NCBI GenBank assembly: GCA_937921595.1
Contig: CAKZTD010000023.1
Coordinates: forward strand, 12,742-76,741
Length of the DNA stretch: 64,000 bases
DNA from: an uncultured Saprospiraceae bacterium
GTDB taxonomy: Bacteria > Bacteroidota > Bacteroidia > Chitinophagales > Saprospiraceae
Direction: 5' to 3'
Made by a program: the position numbers and the translations under genes. The notes beneath the pieces are model-generated. The model was not told the DNA's origin and searched no databases. It worked only from the letters and a program-made list of their open reading frames with translations. Positions 13,638-43,779 of the stretch are shown piece after piece. Numbering within the stretch: position 1 is the stretch's first letter; each line of letters begins with the position of its first letter.

Positions 13638-14237
13638 TTGATATTCAAAGCACTAAATATCATCAAGTCAGAACTTAGTCTTCACCTCGCTCCTCATCTT
13701 AGAGAAGAGGAGTCGGTGATACTCGGTAATATTGCAATGCTAGAAAGCAATACTGGCCCAGGCAATGGCAATGCGAATATATTAGATGGGAAAGTCGTCA
13801 TTTCTCTGGTCGGTGTCCAACAAGAAAAGGCACTTAGAAATCTTCCAAATTTCAAAGTACAAAATGGACAAACCATTTATAAAAATGCACCCGTTCATGT
13901 CAATCTCTTTGTACTCATTTCAGCGAACAGTAGTAAGTATGAAACTTCTTTAAAATATCTATCGCAGGTTATTAAATTTTTCCAAGGCAAAAATATATTC
14001 ACTCATCTTGATTCATTTGAAAAGAATAATGATCCCGATGCCGATCAACAAGAACAGGAAGCATTCCGATTATTGATTGATTTACATTCTACCACTTTTG
14101 AAGAATCAAATTATTTATGGAGTACACTCGGTGGAAAACAATTGCCTGCTGCTTGTTATAAAATAAGAGTTCTGGCATTGGAAAGAGATATTCCTCAAGG
14201 TACTAGTGGTACAATAAAAGAAATTACGATAAAATAA
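13638..14237 (+). CDS. eCIS cap/tail terminator (DUF4255, Afp16/Pvc16-like)
   Basis: TTG start. The pattern ISLVGVQQEKALRNLP...PVHVNLFVLISANSSKYETSLKYLSQVIKFFQ matches my memory of the Pvc16_N/DUF4255 family. It is the first gene of the contractile locus. Confidence 0.7.
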   Translation: MIFKALNIIKSELSLHLAPHLREEESVILGNIAMLESNTGPGNGNANILDGKVVISLVGVQQEKALRNLPNFKVQNGQTIYKNAPVHVNLFVLISANSSKYETSLKYLSQVIKFFQGKNIFTHLDSFEKNNDPDADQQEQEAFRLLIDLHSTTFEESNYLWSTLGGKQLPAACYKIRVLALERDIPQGTSGTIKEITIK

Positions 14238-14252
14238 AATAAGTATTTATAA

Positions 14253-15614
14253 ATGGCCATCACGATAAAATATAAAATCCTTTTTTCTATTGATCTCTTG
14301 CATCATTATTTCCTCGATAAAGGAGTAGACCACTATGAATCTTTGAATGCAGATCAAAAGATTAAGCAATTGGCTTTTTATGATATTCGAAATTTCATAA
14401 CACTCACTCCTACTCCATCTTGTCTGGAAATAATTAAAAACCATAATCTTATTTTCAGGCCAACGCCAACAGGTATACTAATTGGTTCGAAAATCGACCC
14501 TGATAATGATCAGCCATTTGTTGATATTTCGATTGATACAAAATTTACTTTTATTTTAAATTTAAAAAGTCAGAGCTTTTTTAATTTCACTGCTTTGCCA
14601 TTGAATTTCGGTTCACCTCAATGTTTTTATTTTAATAATCTTGAAAAAGACTCTTCCAGTTTTTTAAACCTTTCAAAAAATCCAGAAGTATTTTCTGAAG
14701 GCTTGGCTTATCAAGCTGGAAGCATCGTATCCAATGCCGATGGGTCTGAAATTTTCACTATAAAAAACAATACCGATAATGCTTCAAATATAGATCGGCT
14801 AAAAGATACTCCAGCTCCTATTTTCGACAATAATGAAGATTATAAAAAAGGAGATATCATTTTAATAAATATTGCAGGTATTGATCAACTTTTCGAATCA
14901 AAAATTGATGATCCTGTTGATACTCCCGTTGATCTTCCTGGGAATGACTGGAATAAGCTTAGAGACTTACCACTCAACTATGCCAATAAAAATGACCTAA
15001 TTCATATTCGGAAACCAATCCATAATTATTCTCTTCCTTCGGATGATATTGAAGCAACTGCTACCCTCTCGGAAGTTCAATCTAATGGCCTTTTACTTAT
15101 AAAAACAGATGCCATTGAAAACACTAATTCATTTCAGTTTGATTGGAGAACAATTCCTTCAGGATTATATCAATTTGAAGTAAGCGACAATAACTTACTA
15201 GATGCTGATCCAGGAAAAATTATAAGCCAGGAAGTTTTTTATTTAAATAATGCCGCTTTCCAATCTCCTCCTTTTGGTATCATCGAAATTTATGCAAGTC
15301 GATCTGATGATAATAATTATGCCTTGTTACAAACAAATGGAACCTTTAAAACCACCGAAAGTCAATTCATCCTCCGTTTCAAAAACAGAGCGACAATCTG
15401 GAGATATATTTTCAGAGAAGCTCAGGCAGTCGATGGTGCTGATGATGTGAGTATTGAAAATGGAGACGATAAAATTTTAATCACCAACGAAATAAAACCC
15501 TTAACCAAAAATGGTTTAATAGAAATCAATAAAGGTGAAAATCAATTACCAAATCCAAATTCTAACATGATAAAACCAGAAACCAATAATATATTTTCTG
15601 AAATCTATTTATAA
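14253..15614 (+). CDS. eCIS-associated protein of unknown function (between cap and sheath)
   Basis: Clean 453-aa ORF 15 nt after the cap gene. No motif recognised. Confidence 0.6.
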   Translation: MAITIKYKILFSIDLLHHYFLDKGVDHYESLNADQKIKQLAFYDIRNFITLTPTPSCLEIIKNHNLIFRPTPTGILIGSKIDPDNDQPFVDISIDTKFTFILNLKSQSFFNFTALPLNFGSPQCFYFNNLEKDSSSFLNLSKNPEVFSEGLAYQAGSIVSNADGSEIFTIKNNTDNASNIDRLKDTPAPIFDNNEDYKKGDIILINIAGIDQLFESKIDDPVDTPVDLPGNDWNKLRDLPLNYANKNDLIHIRKPIHNYSLPSDDIEATATLSEVQSNGLLLIKTDAIENTNSFQFDWRTIPSGLYQFEVSDNNLLDADPGKIISQEVFYLNNAAFQSPPFGIIEIYASRSDDNNYALLQTNGTFKTTESQFILRFKNRATIWRYIFREAQAVDGADDVSIENGDDKILITNEIKPLTKNGLIEINKGENQLPNPNSNMIKPETNNIFSEIYL

Positions 15615-41596: not shown

Positions 41597-41724
41597 CACC
41601 ACTAACAAGCCCGAAAGACTACAAGCAAGAACATCCACCAAAAAGCCTGAAGGGCTTTAACACAAATAAAGCCTGAAAGGCTGACACCAACAACAAGCCC
41701 AAAAGGCTACAAGCAACAATAACA
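41597..41724 (+). repeat. array of four AGCC-N(4-5)-GGCT-type mini-hairpins in the ATPase-protease spacer
   Basis: caagcccgaaagactacaagcaa ... aagcctgaagggctt ... aagcctgaaaggct ... caagcccaaaaggctacaagcaa. The outer two units are near-identical direct repeats. Confidence 0.6.
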
Positions 41725-43779
41725 ATGGCAAAAACCTATATCCTCCACAGAAACAACCAGGAAATAAAAATCCAAAAAGAAACCGAATACTTCACTGCCA
41801 TCGTCAATGACGAAGAACTCATCTACGAAGTCAATCAAAACCCCGAAGTGGCAAAAGTCAAACGCGTCTTCAACAATGTTTTCAAAATAAAAGCTACAGG
41901 TAAAGATTGTAACGCCTTAGTCGACAAACTTAGGGCAAAATACGATACCCGAATGGTCTTCCATCATGCTTACAAACCAGCAGGTGACGCTTCGACCAGA
42001 TACTACATCACCGATATGGTAGCTGTTCGGTTCAAAGCAAACACCAGCAATTCAAAAATAGAAACCATCCTAACTGATTGCGGTTTACAATTCATTAAAC
42101 AATACCGAGATCACAAACACTCTTATCTTTTCAAAGTCACCAAGTCTGCAGGAAAAAATCCAGTAAAACTTTGCAACGATCTTCATGTCATGCCTGAAGT
42201 AGATTATGCAGAACCAAACCTCGTCAATCGTTTTGACAAAACGGCTTCGCCTACAGATTCTCATTTTTACTATCAATGGCATTTAAAAAGTAGACCAGGA
42301 GTAGAGCTCGTTGCTGGAGCGGATGTCGATGCGGAAGGTGCTTGGAAAATCACCAAAGGTACCCGAGATATTATCGTTGCTGTGATAGATGATGGATTCG
42401 ACCTTACCCATCCTGATCTAAGAGGAAAAGACAAAGTCGTACATGCAAGAGATTTTGTAGATGGAGATAAATCACCATTTCCAGTAGAAGCACATAATGA
42501 CTATCATGGTACGCCATGTGCCGGTGTTGCCATCGGAGAAGAAAACGGAAGTGGAGTCGTAGGAATCGCACCGGGTTGTGCCTTCATGCCTATCCGATTT
42601 GATCTAGCAGCTGATGATGATTTGCTTTGGGAAATTTTTGATTATGTTGGAAAAAGAGCTGATGTTATTTCTTGCAGCTGGGGGCCAGTTCCTGTGTATG
42701 CACCACTAGGAAGTTTACTCGATAGAAAATTTACAGAGATTGTAAAATCCGGAGGACCAAGAGGTAAAGGTGCAGTCCTTTTATTTGCTGCTGGTAATTT
42801 TAATGCTCCATTAAAAGATTTTGGAAACACCGATTTCCAATGGCGGCATCCTTCTCATGGAATTGTCAAACAAGCGAGAGCAATCCTCAATGGTAACTGT
42901 GCTCATAAAGAAGTCATGGCTGTTGCTGCTTCTACGAGTCAAAACAAAAAAGCTGCTTACAGTAATTGGGGAAAAGAAATCAGTGTCGCTGCGCCAAGTT
43001 CCAATTGGCATCCACTCGATCCTTTTGAAAAAATGCCAGGTCGTGGAATCTGGACAACAGATAATGAAAATTTTGGACTTGGATTTACGGGAAATAGTCG
43101 GTACACCGGACTCTTTGGAGGAACCTCCAGCGCTACGCCACTCGTTGCAGGTGTTGCGGCCCTAGTCATGTCTGCCAATAAAGATCTTACCGCAAAACAA
43201 GTTAGAACGATTATAGAAACAACGACTGATAAAATTACTGATGACAGTACTGATATTGTTTTAAAACATAAAAAAGGAGCCTACGATGGTCGTGGAAAAG
43301 CCAGTCATTCCGAATGGTTTGGTTTTGGAAAAATCAATGCTGCCAAAGCTGTTGCTTTAGCTAAATCTATGGCTACTGGACCCAATCAGTCAACAAACAC
43401 AGAAACGACTCCCAAGCCTAAACCTAAAACACCTAAAAAGCCAAAAGCCATCACAACTGGCATCTCTATTGTCGCTGCATTGGTCAATCCAAAAGGCAAA
43501 GAAACCAACAAGGAAACCATCACGCTACTCAACCAAACAGACAAAGCGGTAAAGCTCGATGGTTGGTACATTTCCAATAAACCAAATAAAAAACAATTGC
43601 TCGATAAGTTAAGCATTGAGCCCAACGCTTTTCTTACAGTCAAGGTAAAATCAAAAAATATAAAATTGGTAAATACTGGTGGTACCATTACCCTTTTTAA
43701 TTATGATGATAAAAATGTCCATGAAGTGAAGTATACTAAAAAAGCAGCTTCAAAAAATGGTTGGACAACTAGATTTTAA
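41725..43779 (+). CDS. S8 subtilase with C-terminal lamin-tail (LTD) domain; no signal peptide
   Basis: Catalytic motifs VAVIDDGFDLTHPDL, HGTPCAGVAIG and GGTSSATPLVAGVAAL. PKPKPKTPKKPK linker, then IVAALVNPKGKETNKETITLLNQTDKAVKLDGWYISN (LTD-like). Confidence 0.85.
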   Translation: MAKTYILHRNNQEIKIQKETEYFTAIVNDEELIYEVNQNPEVAKVKRVFNNVFKIKATGKDCNALVDKLRAKYDTRMVFHHAYKPAGDASTRYYITDMVAVRFKANTSNSKIETILTDCGLQFIKQYRDHKHSYLFKVTKSAGKNPVKLCNDLHVMPEVDYAEPNLVNRFDKTASPTDSHFYYQWHLKSRPGVELVAGADVDAEGAWKITKGTRDIIVAVIDDGFDLTHPDLRGKDKVVHARDFVDGDKSPFPVEAHNDYHGTPCAGVAIGEENGSGVVGIAPGCAFMPIRFDLAADDDLLWEIFDYVGKRADVISCSWGPVPVYAPLGSLLDRKFTEIVKSGGPRGKGAVLLFAAGNFNAPLKDFGNTDFQWRHPSHGIVKQARAILNGNCAHKEVMAVAASTSQNKKAAYSNWGKEISVAAPSSNWHPLDPFEKMPGRGIWTTDNENFGLGFTGNSRYTGLFGGTSSATPLVAGVAALVMSANKDLTAKQVRTIIETTTDKITDDSTDIVLKHKKGAYDGRGKASHSEWFGFGKINAAKAVALAKSMATGPNQSTNTETTPKPKPKTPKKPKAITTGISIVAALVNPKGKETNKETITLLNQTDKAVKLDGWYISNKPNKKQLLDKLSIEPNAFLTVKVKSKNIKLVNTGGTITLFNYDDKNVHEVKYTKKAASKNGWTTRF

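What the first reader, a model, noticed from the sequence alone, without database searches (positions are those of the whole stretch)
13638..43779. Complete ~30 kb extracellular contractile injection system (eCIS) locus with a rearranged gene order
Eighteen co-directional genes encode the full set of contractile-particle parts. These are a DUF4255 cap, one phage-type sheath, two gp19-type tubes, a micro-ORF, a LysM initiator, a VgrG-like spike, PAAR, gp25, two very large baseplate proteins, a fibre-position protein, a tape-measure-like protein and an AAA+ ATPase. From sheath to ATPase the order is colinear with afp2-afp15 of the Serratia Afp prototype. It differs in four ways. (i) The cap gene sits at the 5' end. 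(ii) PAAR precedes gp25. (iii) There is one sheath gene, where Afp/PVC have three paralogues. (iv) Two DUF4157 cargo candidates sit between the tape measure and the ATPase. There are no capsid, portal or terminase genes, so it is not a prophage. There is no split TssB/C sheath, TssK, membrane-complex gene or ClpV, so it is not a Bacteroidota T6SS. There is no integrase or transposase. The locus begins 500 bp after the ftsY terminator and looks compositionally like its flanks. No holin/endolysin cassette is visible, so how particles would be released is open.
Basis: partly seen in the sequence, partly recalled or inferred. Interest (0 to 1): 0.85.

Follow-up and report, generated by a model that had tools for sequence, protein, structure and literature searches.

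The report
AlgoCIS-type contractile injection system locus
This is a real, complete gene cluster for a phage-tail-like protein-injecting particle, but its "rearranged" gene order is the normal layout of an already characterised group (the Algoriphagus AlgoCIS / clade Ib type), so it is a new member of a known kind.

Summary
18 co-directional genes at 13638-43779 encode a full contractile injection system (CIS) on a Bacteroidota chromosome, probably Saprospiraceae-like. The novelty claim does not hold. Gene for gene, and almost length for length, the locus matches the 18-gene AlgoCIS cluster of Algoriphagus machipongonensis (clade Ib, solved by cryo-EM) and the Anabaena tCIS. All four "differences from Afp" are the standard layout of that clade: cap at the 5' end, PAAR before gp25, a single sheath gene, and DUF4157 cargos between tape measure and ATPase.

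- The unassigned second gene is the cap adaptor (Cis16B).
- The micro-ORF is the Alg6 plug.
- The "fibre-position protein" is an Alg19 tail fibre.
- The AAA+ ATPase is gene 17 (40271-41596).
- The last gene (41725-43779) is a signal-peptide-less subtilase with a lamin-tail domain. Its membership in the system is uncertain.

Modestly new points:
- The 1778-aa cargo is an in-frame fusion of two cargo proteins that are separate genes elsewhere. One carries an OmpA-like peptidoglycan-binding domain; the other has an HExxH C-terminal domain.
- The second cargo gene also has an invariant HExxH C-terminal domain with no known fold match.

Thylakoid-anchoring markers, prophage genes and T6SS genes are absent. 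Interest is low to moderate.

The parts
13190..13237 (+). ftsY intrinsic terminator (10-bp GC-rich stem, 9-nt loop, T-run). It marks the upstream boundary. A 400-bp non-coding leader follows before g1.
   Evidence: Read directly from the sequence. ftsY identified by Pfam SRP54, 5e-74.
13638..14237 (+). g1, cap / tail terminator (Cis16A-type, short single-domain DUF4255), 199 aa
   Evidence: Pvc16_N 2.8e-33. PDB: All3327 1.1e-37, AlgoCIS cap 4.3e-35, full length.
14253..15614 (+). g2, cap adaptor (Cis16B/Alg16B family), 453 aa
   Evidence: No Pfam match. PDB: AlgoCIS cap adaptor 6.3e-19, All3326 1.1e-18. 904 clusters at 50% identity match at E<=1e-3, with lengths ~290-490 aa.
15799..17211 (+). 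g3, the single contractile sheath protein, 470 aa. It lacks the ~220-aa outer-domain insertion of Alg2 and matches Anabaena All3325 end to end.
   Evidence: PDB: Alg2 8.7e-159, All3325 2.4e-156 (residues 3-470), Afp3 7e-69, T4 gp18 2.5e-7, pyocin 4.7e-6.
17254..17685 (+). g4, inner tube protein (Alg1 position), 143 aa
   Evidence: Phage_T4_gp19 1.7e-51. Same position and length as Alg1, 142 aa.
17689..18132 (+). g5, tube initiator (Alg5 position), 147 aa
   Evidence: Phage_T4_gp19 7e-44. Alg5 is 147 aa.
18134..18292 (+). g6, 52-aa plug protein (Alg6/Cis6, DUF5908)
   Evidence: DUF5908 1.6e-16. PDB: Alg6 2.6e-8, Asl3322 1.4e-7, full length.
18293..18982 (+). g7, tube initiator with C-terminal LysM (Alg7), 229 aa
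   Evidence: CIS_tube 4.4e-49 plus LysM 5e-4.
19049..20854 (+). g8, VgrG-like spike (Alg8). The likely true start is the TTG at 19106, giving 582 aa.
   Evidence: PDB: Alg8 4.7e-210, aligned from residue 24; All3320 2.4e-197. Alternative start found.
20965..21255 (+). g9, PAAR spike tip (Alg10), 96 aa
   Evidence: PAAR_motif 1.8e-27.
21408..21827 (+). g10, gp25-like sheath initiator / wedge (Alg9), 139 aa
   Evidence: GPW_gp25 2.7e-26.
21852..25019 (+). g11, large gp6-like baseplate wedge (Alg11; in AlgoCIS it carries the spike-cage insertion), 1055 aa
   Evidence: PDB: Alg11 5.2e-172, All3317 1.1e-155, Afp11 1.9e-35.
25295..28060 (+). g12, gp6/gp7-like baseplate wedge (Alg12), 921 aa. It has no tCIS-type extension.
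   Evidence: PDB: Alg12 3.5e-170, All3315 3.6e-139.
28260..31553 (+). g13, Alg19-type tail fibre, 1097 aa. The N-terminal ~540 aa (shoulder/neck) are conserved. The C-terminal half is divergent and is the presumed receptor-binding part.
   Evidence: PDB: Alg19 (9wt0) 2.3e-53 over residues 7-540; All3314 4.9e-47. No Pfam match on the C-terminal half.
31553..32944 (+). g14, tape measure protein (Alg14), 463 aa
   Evidence: CIS_TMP 8.8e-110.
33013..38349 (+). g15, a 1778-aa fused double cargo. Module A (aa 1-~1210) has a disordered leader, DUF4157, a PG_binding_1-like region, an OmpA-like domain and a beta-rich body. Module B (aa ~1245-1778) has a partial leader, a second DUF4157 and an HExxH C-terminal domain.
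   Evidence: eCIS_core appears twice. Stand-alone homologues of A are 1154-1258 aa and end at g15 residue ~1200-1216. The stand-alone homologue of B is P0001, 674 aa, 48% identity. OmpA-like fold: Foldseek 2.7e-5. The same 1778-aa ORF is called in two further assemblies.
38410..40182 (+). g16, a 590-aa cargo with disordered leader, DUF4157 and a C-terminal domain carrying an invariant HExxH motif
   Evidence: eCIS_core 3.3e-31. In the alignment of this C-terminal domain with its 6 homologues, H261/E262/H265 are invariant. AF2 pLDDT 76. No significant fold match; the weak top hits are Zn-metalloproteases.
40271..41596 (+). g17, AAA+ ATPase (Alg15), 441 aa, the presumed cargo-loading unfoldase
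   Evidence: AAA 6.7e-29. At least 577 relatives in the genome collection, best ~60% identity. Role of Alg15 taken from 10.64898/2026.05.27.728243.
41608..41708 (+). Four tandem mini-hairpins (AGCCYRAARGGCT) in the g17-g18 spacer. Function unknown.
   Evidence: 4 matches against 0.36 expected. Not conserved in L002.
41725..43779 (+). g18, subtilase (S8) with an N-terminal prodomain-like region and a C-terminal lamin tail domain, no signal peptide, 684 aa. Its membership in the system is uncertain.
   Evidence: Peptidase_S8 5.4e-40, LTD 2.3e-7. Orthologues lie next to a CIS ATPase in L002 and 6 kb from one in L095. 12 of 14 metagenome loci show no CIS gene nearby.

Best explanation
The locus encodes an AlgoCIS-type (clade Ib) contractile injection system, most likely working as an extracellular particle.

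Shown by homology: every structural component solved in AlgoCIS is present, in the same gene order. These are the cap, cap adaptor, single sheath, tube, two tube initiators, Alg6 plug, VgrG spike, PAAR tip, gp25, the Alg11 and Alg12 wedges, and the Alg19 fibre. The non-particle factors are present too: the tape measure and the AAA+ ATPase.

Inferred from the AlgoCIS experiments:
1. Particles assemble in the cytoplasm on the baseplate, and the tape measure sets their length.
2. The AAA+ ATPase recognises the disordered N-terminal leaders of the DUF4157 cargos and threads them, unfolded, into the tube lumen.
3. Particles are freed when the producer lyses. No lysis cassette is encoded here, and none is in AlgoCIS either.
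4. The divergent C-terminal half of the Alg19-type fibre binds a target.
5. The cage opens, the baseplate opens, the sheath contracts, and the tube with spike and cargo is driven into the target.

The payload here is three effector modules in two genes:
- A ~1200-aa module with PG_binding_1-like and OmpA-like peptidoglycan-binding domains. It is fused in frame to the second module.
- A ~530-aa module with an HExxH C-terminal domain.
- A separate 590-aa cargo with another invariant HExxH C-terminal domain.

The peptidoglycan-binding domains suggest a bacterial target with action in the periplasm. This is an inference with moderate to low confidence.
For: - Pfam assignments for 14 of the 18 genes.
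- PDB sequence matches rank AlgoCIS and Anabaena tCIS chains first for the sheath, cap, adaptor, plug, spike, Alg11, Alg12 and Alg19. Afp/PVC rank far behind, and phage or pyocin sheaths are marginal.
- Gene order and protein lengths match AlgoCIS Suppl. Table 1.
- No strong transmembrane helix in any of the 18 proteins.
- The cargo architecture (disordered NTD, DUF4157, variable CTD) matches Cgo1/Cgo2.
- Alg15 is required for cargo loading, the NTD is the loading signal and the TMP acts as a ruler.
- The Alg19 fibre binds bacterial cells, and firing is stepwise.
- The OmpA-like fold in cargo A is supported by Foldseek (E 2.7e-5, probability 1.0), and homologues carry Pfam OmpA and PG_binding_1.
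- The family is widespread: at least 577 ATPase relatives in genomes and 904 cap-adaptor clusters.
Against: - Nothing in the sequence proves particles are made or released. The closest relatives include a system that is not released (Anabaena tCIS) and, in the same clade, T6SS-iv.
- No lysis genes and no adjacent regulator were found.
- No recognisable Bacteroidota promoter motif lies upstream of g1.
- The AlgoCIS TPR gene is absent.
- The effector activities are unproven. Both HExxH C-terminal domains lack significant Pfam or fold matches.
- The peptidoglycan-binding inference rests on sub-threshold Pfam scores in this protein itself, plus a predicted structure.
Confidence: 0.85

Rival explanations
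1. The same machine is used in a non-extracellular mode. It could be anchored inside the producer (tCIS-like or T6SS-iv-like), or it could be a cytoplasmic CIS that mediates producer cell death, as in Streptomyces.
For: - The sheath, cap and cap adaptor score as well against Anabaena tCIS as against AlgoCIS.
- Clade Ib contains T6SS-iv and tCIS.
- No lysis cassette is present.
Against: - The tCIS anchoring markers are absent. There is no Cis13 gene between g11 and g12 (a 275-bp gap with no ORF).
- g12 is 921 aa, without the 610-1100 extension.
- No transmembrane helix is present.
- BIS/T6SS-iv-type loci lack Cis6 and Alg19, and both are present here.
- Bacteroidota have no thylakoids.
Confidence: 0.1
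2. The locus is a decaying or silent relic that no longer produces particles.
For: - No promoter or regulator was recognised.
- There are unusually long spacers: 275 bp between g11 and g12, and 199 bp between g12 and g13.
- The cargo fusion could be an accident.
Against: - All 18 ORFs are intact and have near-canonical lengths relative to AlgoCIS.
- Catalytic and structural motifs are conserved.
- The same ORFs are recovered in several independent assemblies.
Confidence: 0.04
3. The locus is a prophage tail remnant, an R-type tailocin, or a Bacteroidota T6SS-iii.
For: It shares the contractile-tail ancestry. The shoulder of the Alg19 fibre has a TssK-like fold in AlgoCIS.
Against: - The phage T4 gp18 sheath and the pyocin sheath match only at 1e-7 to 1e-6, against 1e-159 for AlgoCIS.
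- No TssB/C, TssK, ClpV, capsid, portal, terminase, integrase, holin or endolysin family was matched by any ORF scanned in the window.
- eCIS-specific families are present: DUF4255, DUF5908, CIS_TMP, eCIS_core and the AAA+ ATPase.
- No relative was found in IMG/VR with the sheath as query. This is weak evidence, because the method finds only close relatives.
Confidence: 0.01

Closest known systems
AlgoCIS of Algoriphagus machipongonensis PR1 (clade Ib eCIS; PDB 7ADZ/7AEB/7AEF/9WT0; PMC8894135)
   Same: - Same order for the 17 shared genes, with near-identical lengths for 10 of them.
- Two-protein cap: a short Cis16A plus an adaptor.
- A single sheath gene and a 52-aa plug.
- PAAR before gp25.
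- ~1050-aa Alg11 and ~930-aa Alg12.
- An Alg19 fibre.
- TMP followed by two DUF4157 cargo genes and then an AAA+ ATPase.
- AlgoCIS is the top PDB hit for the sheath, adaptor, plug, spike, Alg11, Alg12 and Alg19; for the cap it ranks second, just behind Anabaena All3327.
   Different: - The sheath is 470 aa against 692 aa; the outer-domain insertion is missing.
- The cap adaptor is 453 aa against 284 aa.
- The fibre is 1097 aa against 1443 aa, with an unrelated C-terminal half.
- The TMP is 463 aa against 537 aa.
- There is no TPR gene before the ATPase.
- The cargo C-terminal domains are unrelated, and one cargo gene is a fusion of two cargos.
- A subtilase-LTD gene follows the ATPase.
Anabaena sp. 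PCC 7120 thylakoid-anchored CIS (tCIS; PDB 7B5H/7B5I; PMC8894136)
   Same: - Same gene order from the cap onward (All3327 to All3314).
- The sheath aligns end to end (484 aa against 470 aa).
- The cap adaptor is of similar size (399 aa).
- Cis6, Cis11, Cis12 and Cis19 homologues are present.
   Different: - No Cis13 transmembrane fibre.
- No Cis12 extension.
- No thylakoids in the host.
- Cargo genes lie inside the cluster here, between TMP and ATPase.
Afp (Serratia entomophila) and PVC (Photorhabdus), clade Ia eCIS
   Same: Same core parts list and the same general mechanism. They are homologous at 1e-18 to 1e-69.
   Different: - Three sheath paralogues.
- A two-domain cap gene near the 3' end.
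- An Afp13-type fibre.
- gp25 before PAAR.
- No cap adaptor.
- Cargos without DUF4157 (PVC), located after the ATPase.
DUF4157 (eCIS_core) cargo/toxin family (Geller et al. 2021, PMC8213781; Cgo1/Cgo2)
   Same: [quoted passage not shown]
   Different: g15 carries two leader/DUF4157 modules in one polypeptide. This was seen in only 2 of 106 DUF4157 ORFs in related loci, and also in P0011.

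Membership tests
Clade Ib CIS, AlgoCIS type | Core CIS set: sheath, gp19 tube, VgrG spike, PAAR, gp25, gp6/J-like wedges, DUF4255 cap, tape measure, AAA+ ATPase | tested here: met
   Pfam and PDB sequence hits.
Clade Ib CIS, AlgoCIS type | Two-protein cap: a short single-domain Cis16A (~195 aa) plus a separate cap adaptor Cis16B, both encoded at the 5' end before the sheath | tested here: met
   g1 is 199 aa and matches Alg16A/All3327. g2 matches Alg16B/All3326. Order as.
Clade Ib CIS, AlgoCIS type | A single sheath gene that is closest to clade Ib sheaths | tested here: met
   There is one sheath ORF. Scores are 532 bits (Alg2) and 524 bits (All3325), against 236 bits for Afp3 and 33 bits for T4 gp18. 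No formal tree was built.
Clade Ib CIS, AlgoCIS type | Alg6/Cis6 plug (DUF5908, ~50 aa) between tube initiators | tested here: met
Clade Ib CIS, AlgoCIS type | Enlarged Alg11 (~1050 aa) carrying the spike-cage insertion | tested here: inconclusive
   The length (1055 aa) and the 5.2e-172 match to Alg11 in two stretches imply the insertion is present. The cage domain itself was not modelled or aligned residue by residue.
Clade Ib CIS, AlgoCIS type | Alg19/Cis19-type fibre after Alg12, in place of an Afp13 fibre | tested here: met
   g13 residues 7-540 align to Alg19 residues 4-517, 2.3e-53. In relatives, 30 of 30 loci have Alg19-like, then TMP, then ATPase.
Clade Ib CIS, AlgoCIS type | DUF4157 cargos with disordered leaders between TMP and AAA+ ATPase | tested here: met
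   In related loci this holds for 41 of 45.
Extracellular mode of action (eCIS sensu stricto) | Particles released from the producer that act as free particles on targets | not testable with these tools
   Only indirect evidence: no transmembrane anchors, and a fibre and cargo as in AlgoCIS.
Thylakoid-anchored CIS (tCIS) | Cis13 fibre with a transmembrane helix between Cis11 and Cis12, and a Cis12 extension (aa 610-1100) | tested here: not met
   The 275-bp g11-g12 gap has no ORF on the + strand. g12 is 921 aa. No transmembrane helix. Criteria taken from PMC8894136.
BIS / T6SS-iv type (Bacteroidales, Amoebophilus) | Lacks Cis6 and Alg19/Cis13 fibres; carries an Aasi_0556 homologue | tested here: not met
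   Cis6 and Alg19 are present. An Aasi_0556 homologue could not be searched for because no sequence was to hand. Criteria taken from PMC12210884.
Afp/PVC (clade Ia) | Three sheath paralogues, a two-domain Afp16 cap near the 3' end, and an Afp13 fibre | tested here: not met
   There is one sheath, a 199-aa cap at the 5' end and no Afp13-like gene.
Prophage / tailocin | Capsid, portal and terminase (prophage), or a holin/endolysin cassette with phage-type sheath affinity (tailocin) | tested here: not met
   No ORF scanned against Pfam in the 64-kb window matched any of these families. Phage and pyocin sheaths match only marginally.
T6SS-iii (Bacteroidota) | TssB/TssC split sheath, TssK, TssE/F/G and ClpV | tested here: not met
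   No such Pfam matches. No TssC-type chain appears among the PDB sheath hits.

The most novel reading that the evidence does not exclude
Two local peculiarities may be functional rather than incidental.

1. The 1778-aa protein could be a 'polycargo'. It would be loaded through a single N-terminal leader and then split, perhaps by its internal HExxH DUF4157 domain, into a peptidoglycan-binding effector and a metallopeptidase-like effector. That would give DUF4157 a demonstrable processing role.

2. The signal-peptide-less subtilase-LTD encoded right after the ATPase could be a dedicated accessory of this CIS lineage. Possible roles are maturation (for example the unexplained cleavage of the Alg7 linker), cargo processing, or producer lysis and particle release.
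Probability: 0.15. Interest if true: 0.55.

Novelty: new member of a known kind. Interest (0 to 1): 0.27.

Why it matters
The finding adds one more complete AlgoCIS-type injection system, from an uncultured Bacteroidota lineage. The nearest genome relatives share only ~60% identity in the ATPase and ~27-38% in the TMP and fibre.

Its value is as raw material:
- A compact sheath variant.
- A new fibre tip, meaning a potential new target specificity for engineered PROCIS-like delivery particles.
- Three uncharacterised effector modules.
- A natural two-cargo fusion. This bears on how much, and what kind of, cargo one leader can load, and on the still unknown role of DUF4157.

It does not change the picture of CIS organisation. 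CIS loci are already known to be enriched in Bacteroidota.

Tried and rejected
- **Promoter and terminator scans** across the locus gave chance-level counts. A search for the Bacteroidota -7 motif TAnnTTTG found none upstream of g1 or g18, and only one 114 nt before dcuC. No transcription units could be inferred.
- **Rfam** found only tRNA-Arg at 11181-11257.
- **Exact look-up of the sheath protein** found no record. The source was traced instead through g16 (P0002, identical, in ENA/Logan/NCBI assemblies).
- **Pfam on sub-fragments** of the cargos, the fibre C-terminus, the adaptor C-terminus and the Alg12 C-terminus gave only sub-threshold hits.
- **PDB sequence search** of the cargos found nothing significant.
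- **Foldseek on the g16 C-terminal domain** found no significant match. Zn-metalloproteases appear only at E of about 0.08-4.
- **Self-BLAST of the cargo A body** found no internal repeats.
- **IMG/VR scan with the sheath** found nothing.
- **The idea that the subtilase is a conserved CIS component** was tested and remains unresolved. It is adjacent to the ATPase in L002 and 6 kb away in L095. Only 2 of 14 metagenome homologues have a DUF4157 gene nearby. L002 also shares downstream DUF1800/DUF1501 synteny with the window, so the adjacency may simply be inherited.
- **The g15 fusion as an assembly artefact** was rejected. The same 1778-aa ORF is called in other assemblies.

Full report
**What is there.** The window carries 18 co-directional + strand ORFs from 13638 to 43779. 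They sit between ftsY (12182-13138, SRP54 5e-74) and a DcuC transporter gene (44029-45525). The flanks encode rpmB, tRNA-Arg, T9SS-sorted proteins and SprB-repeat giants. The host is therefore a Bacteroidota chromosome. GC is ~0.33-0.40 inside the locus and 0.30-0.41 outside.

**Pfam assignments.**
- g1: DUF4255 cap.
- g3: sheath.
- g4, g5: gp19 tube proteins.
- g6: DUF5908.
- g7: CIS_tube plus LysM.
- g8: VgrG-type spike.
- g9: PAAR.
- g10: gp25.
- g11: Baseplate_J.
- g14: CIS_TMP (8.8e-110).
- g15, g16: eCIS_core/DUF4157.
- g17: AAA.
- g18: Peptidase_S8 plus a lamin tail domain.

Three genes have no Pfam match and were resolved against solved structures:
- g2 is the cap adaptor: AlgoCIS Alg16B 6.3e-19, Anabaena All3326 1.1e-18.
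- g12 is Alg12, 3.5e-170.
- g13 is the Alg19 fibre, 2.3e-53 over its N-terminal 540 residues.

The ATPase is gene 17, not the terminal gene. The terminal gene is a subtilase.

**What it is.** For every structural protein, the best solved relatives are AlgoCIS (Algoriphagus machipongonensis) and the Anabaena tCIS.

| Protein | AlgoCIS | Anabaena tCIS |
|---|---|---|
| Sheath | 8.7e-159 | 2.4e-156 |
| Cap | 4.3e-35 | 1.1e-37 |
| Plug | 2.6e-8 | 1.4e-7 |
| Spike | 4.7e-210 | 2.4e-197 |
| Alg11 | 5.2e-172 | 1.1e-155 |
| Alg12 | 3.5e-170 | 3.6e-139 |

Afp and PVC proteins come far behind (1e-18 to 1e-69). Phage T4 and pyocin sheaths are marginal (~1e-7 to 1e-6).

The published AlgoCIS cluster (PMC8894135, Suppl. 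Table 1) runs as follows: Alg16A 197 aa, Alg16B 284, Alg2 692, Alg1 142, Alg5 147, Alg6 52, Alg7 228, Alg8 581, Alg10 96, Alg9 137, Alg11 1050, Alg12 933, Alg19 1443, Alg14 537, Cgo1, Cgo2 (both DUF4157), a TPR protein, and Alg15 435.

The window reads 199, 453, 470, 143, 147, 52, 229, 601 (probably 582 from the TTG at 19106), 96, 139, 1055, 921, 1097, 463, 1778, 590 and 441, then the subtilase.

The Anabaena locus tags of the matched chains (All3327, 3326, 3325, Asl3322, All3320, 3317, 3315, 3314) run in the same order.

In 80 related loci fetched with the ATPase, 41 of 45 have DUF4157 ORFs between tape measure and ATPase. All 30 that reach far enough have Alg19-like, then TMP, then ATPase.

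So the four listed departures from Afp are the normal layout of clade Ib. They are not a rearrangement peculiar to this locus.

The family is large. The ATPase has at least 577 relatives in a one-genome-per-species collection. The cap adaptor matches 904 clusters at 50% identity. Published metagenome surveys already report CIS enrichment in Bacteroidota, and a DUF4157-Alg19 co-occurrence (PMC12210884).

**Which mode of action.** Sequence cannot prove extracellular release, but the discriminators that exist point that way.
- tCIS anchoring depends on a Cis13 fibre with a transmembrane helix, encoded between Cis11 and Cis12, and on a Cis12 extension (PMC8894136).
- Here the g11-g12 gap is 275 bp with no + strand ORF.
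- g12 is 921 aa, like Alg12.
- No protein has a strong hydrophobic helix.
- BIS/T6SS-iv-type loci lack Cis6 and Alg19. Both are present here.

**How it most likely works.** This is inferred from the AlgoCIS experiments.
1. The tape measure sets particle length.
2. The AAA+ ATPase is needed to load cargo into the tube lumen but is not part of the particle.
3. The disordered N-terminal domain of the cargo is the loading signal. DUF4157 is dispensable for loading (10.64898/2026.05.27.728243).
4. Particles are released by lysis of the producer.
5. The Alg19 fibre binds bacterial cells.
6. Firing proceeds stepwise: fibre binding, cage opening, baseplate iris expansion, sheath contraction and cap adaptor release (10.1101/2025.10.08.681156).

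The absence of a lysis cassette is not a distinguishing feature. AlgoCIS has none in its cluster either.

**The payload.** The g15 and g16 N-termini share the leader motifs and the DUF4157 core. Both leaders are compositionally disorder-like.

g15 contains a second, N-terminally truncated leader plus DUF4157 at ~1245-1375, followed by a C-terminal domain with an HELTH motif. The evidence that g15 is a fusion:
- Stand-alone homologues of the first ~1210 residues are 1154-1258 aa long and end where that part of g15 ends. An example is P0009 from Nitrosomonas marina, 47-50% identity.
- The only homologue found for the last ~480 residues is a separate 674-aa cargo (P0001). It lies in another CIS locus between a cargo gene and the ATPase.
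- The same 1778-aa ORF is called in other assemblies, so it is not an assembly error.
- Such tandem architectures are rare: 2 of 106 DUF4157 ORFs in related loci, plus P0011.

g15 is therefore an in-frame fusion of two cargos.

An AlphaFold model of residues 230-1210 (pLDDT 76) contains an OmpA-like peptidoglycan-binding domain (Foldseek E 2.7e-5, probability 1.0). This agrees with the sub-threshold Pfam OmpA and PG_binding_1 hits and with the above-threshold hits in homologues. The beta-rich remainder has no match.

The g16 C-terminal domain has 6 homologues with an invariant HExxH motif. Its model (pLDDT 76) has no significant structural neighbour. The weak top hits are zinc metalloproteases.

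I infer, with modest confidence, a bacterial target and periplasmic action for at least the first module.

**The subtilase.** g18 has no signal peptide and no T9SS C-terminal domain. It has a prodomain-like N-terminus and a C-terminal lamin tail domain.
- Orthologues at 57-61% identity lie directly after the CIS ATPase in a Saprospiraceae MAG (L002), and 6 kb downstream of one in L095.
- Two of 14 metagenomic homologues have a DUF4157 gene nearby. Full-length S8-LTD homologues in L081-L084 have no CIS gene within 3-10 kb.
- L002 also shares DUF1800/DUF1501 genes with the window's downstream region, so the adjacency may be inherited synteny.

I treat its membership in the system as open, at about one in three.

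**Verdict.** This is a genuine, intact CIS locus and a new member of a well-characterised kind. The differences from AlgoCIS are quantitative or peripheral: a compact sheath like Anabaena's, a longer cap adaptor (a common length class), a different fibre tip, a shorter tape measure, no TPR gene, new effector domains, one fused cargo and a neighbouring subtilase. None of these would surprise a specialist. The fused cargo and the subtilase are the only leads worth a follow-up.

Noticed in passing
window 33013-38349 (junction at about 36640-36750): The 1778-aa DUF4157 protein is an in-frame fusion of two cargo proteins that are separate genes elsewhere. The second module keeps only the distal part of the leader (from the CxxCEE motif onward) plus DUF4157. 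Similar tandem architectures occur in L055 (Sabulibacter ruber, a 1670-aa ORF) and in P0011 (Agriterribacter MAG, 1700 aa).
   Followed up: yes
window 41608-41708: Four tandem mini-hairpins matching AGCCYRAARGGCT (4-bp stem, 5-nt loop), spaced 26-36 nt apart, fill the 128-bp spacer between the ATPase and the subtilase gene. There are 4 matches against 0.36 expected, and none elsewhere in the window. They are not conserved in the equivalent spacer of L002. No T-tract follows, so they are not a classical terminator.
   Followed up: partly
window 19049-19106: The spike gene (g8) has no ATG start. Alignment to Alg8 begins at residue 24, so the TTG at 19106 is the more likely start (582 aa against 581 aa in Alg8). 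g1 (TTG) and g17 (GTG) also use non-ATG starts.
   Followed up: partly
window 25020-25294 and 28061-28259: Unusually long non-coding spacers (275 and 199 bp) flank the Alg12 gene inside an otherwise tightly packed cluster. The first sits exactly where Anabaena encodes the transmembrane fibre Cis13. There is no + strand ORF, and no Rfam match at gathering threshold.
   Followed up: partly
L044 (Draconibacterium orientale MAG) 9279-10145: An ftsY homologue (64% identity to the window's ftsY) lies about 4 kb downstream of the CIS ATPase in a distantly related Bacteroidota genome. In the window, ftsY lies immediately upstream of the cluster. This is possibly coincidence.
   Followed up: no
L095 3586-9025: In the related metagenomic CIS locus, the first cargo (1430 aa) has a weak Tox-REase-7 nuclease hit. 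It is followed by a 380-aa ORF with no Pfam match, which is a candidate immunity gene. The window has no comparable small ORF after either cargo.
   Followed up: no
window 49276-54207 (+) and 54292-58473 (-): Two convergent giant SprB-repeat proteins with T9SS C-terminal sorting domains (1643 and 1393 aa) lie downstream. A second subtilase at 6711-8318 does carry a T9SS sorting domain, in contrast to the signal-less g18.
   Followed up: no
window 45654-47630: A TPR-PD40-OmpA protein (658 aa) is encoded 2 kb downstream of the cluster. AlgoCIS has a 289-aa TPR protein inside its cluster and the window lacks one, but there is no evidence linking this gene to the CIS.
   Followed up: no
L014 (Saprospiraceae MAG OZ245894.1) 10001-21284: In this relative, a DUF4157 cargo follows the ATPase, and a sheath homologue appears about 10 kb downstream of the ATPase. 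This suggests either a second CIS locus or a permuted arrangement. L020 and L074 also place a DUF4157 gene after the ATPase.
   Followed up: no
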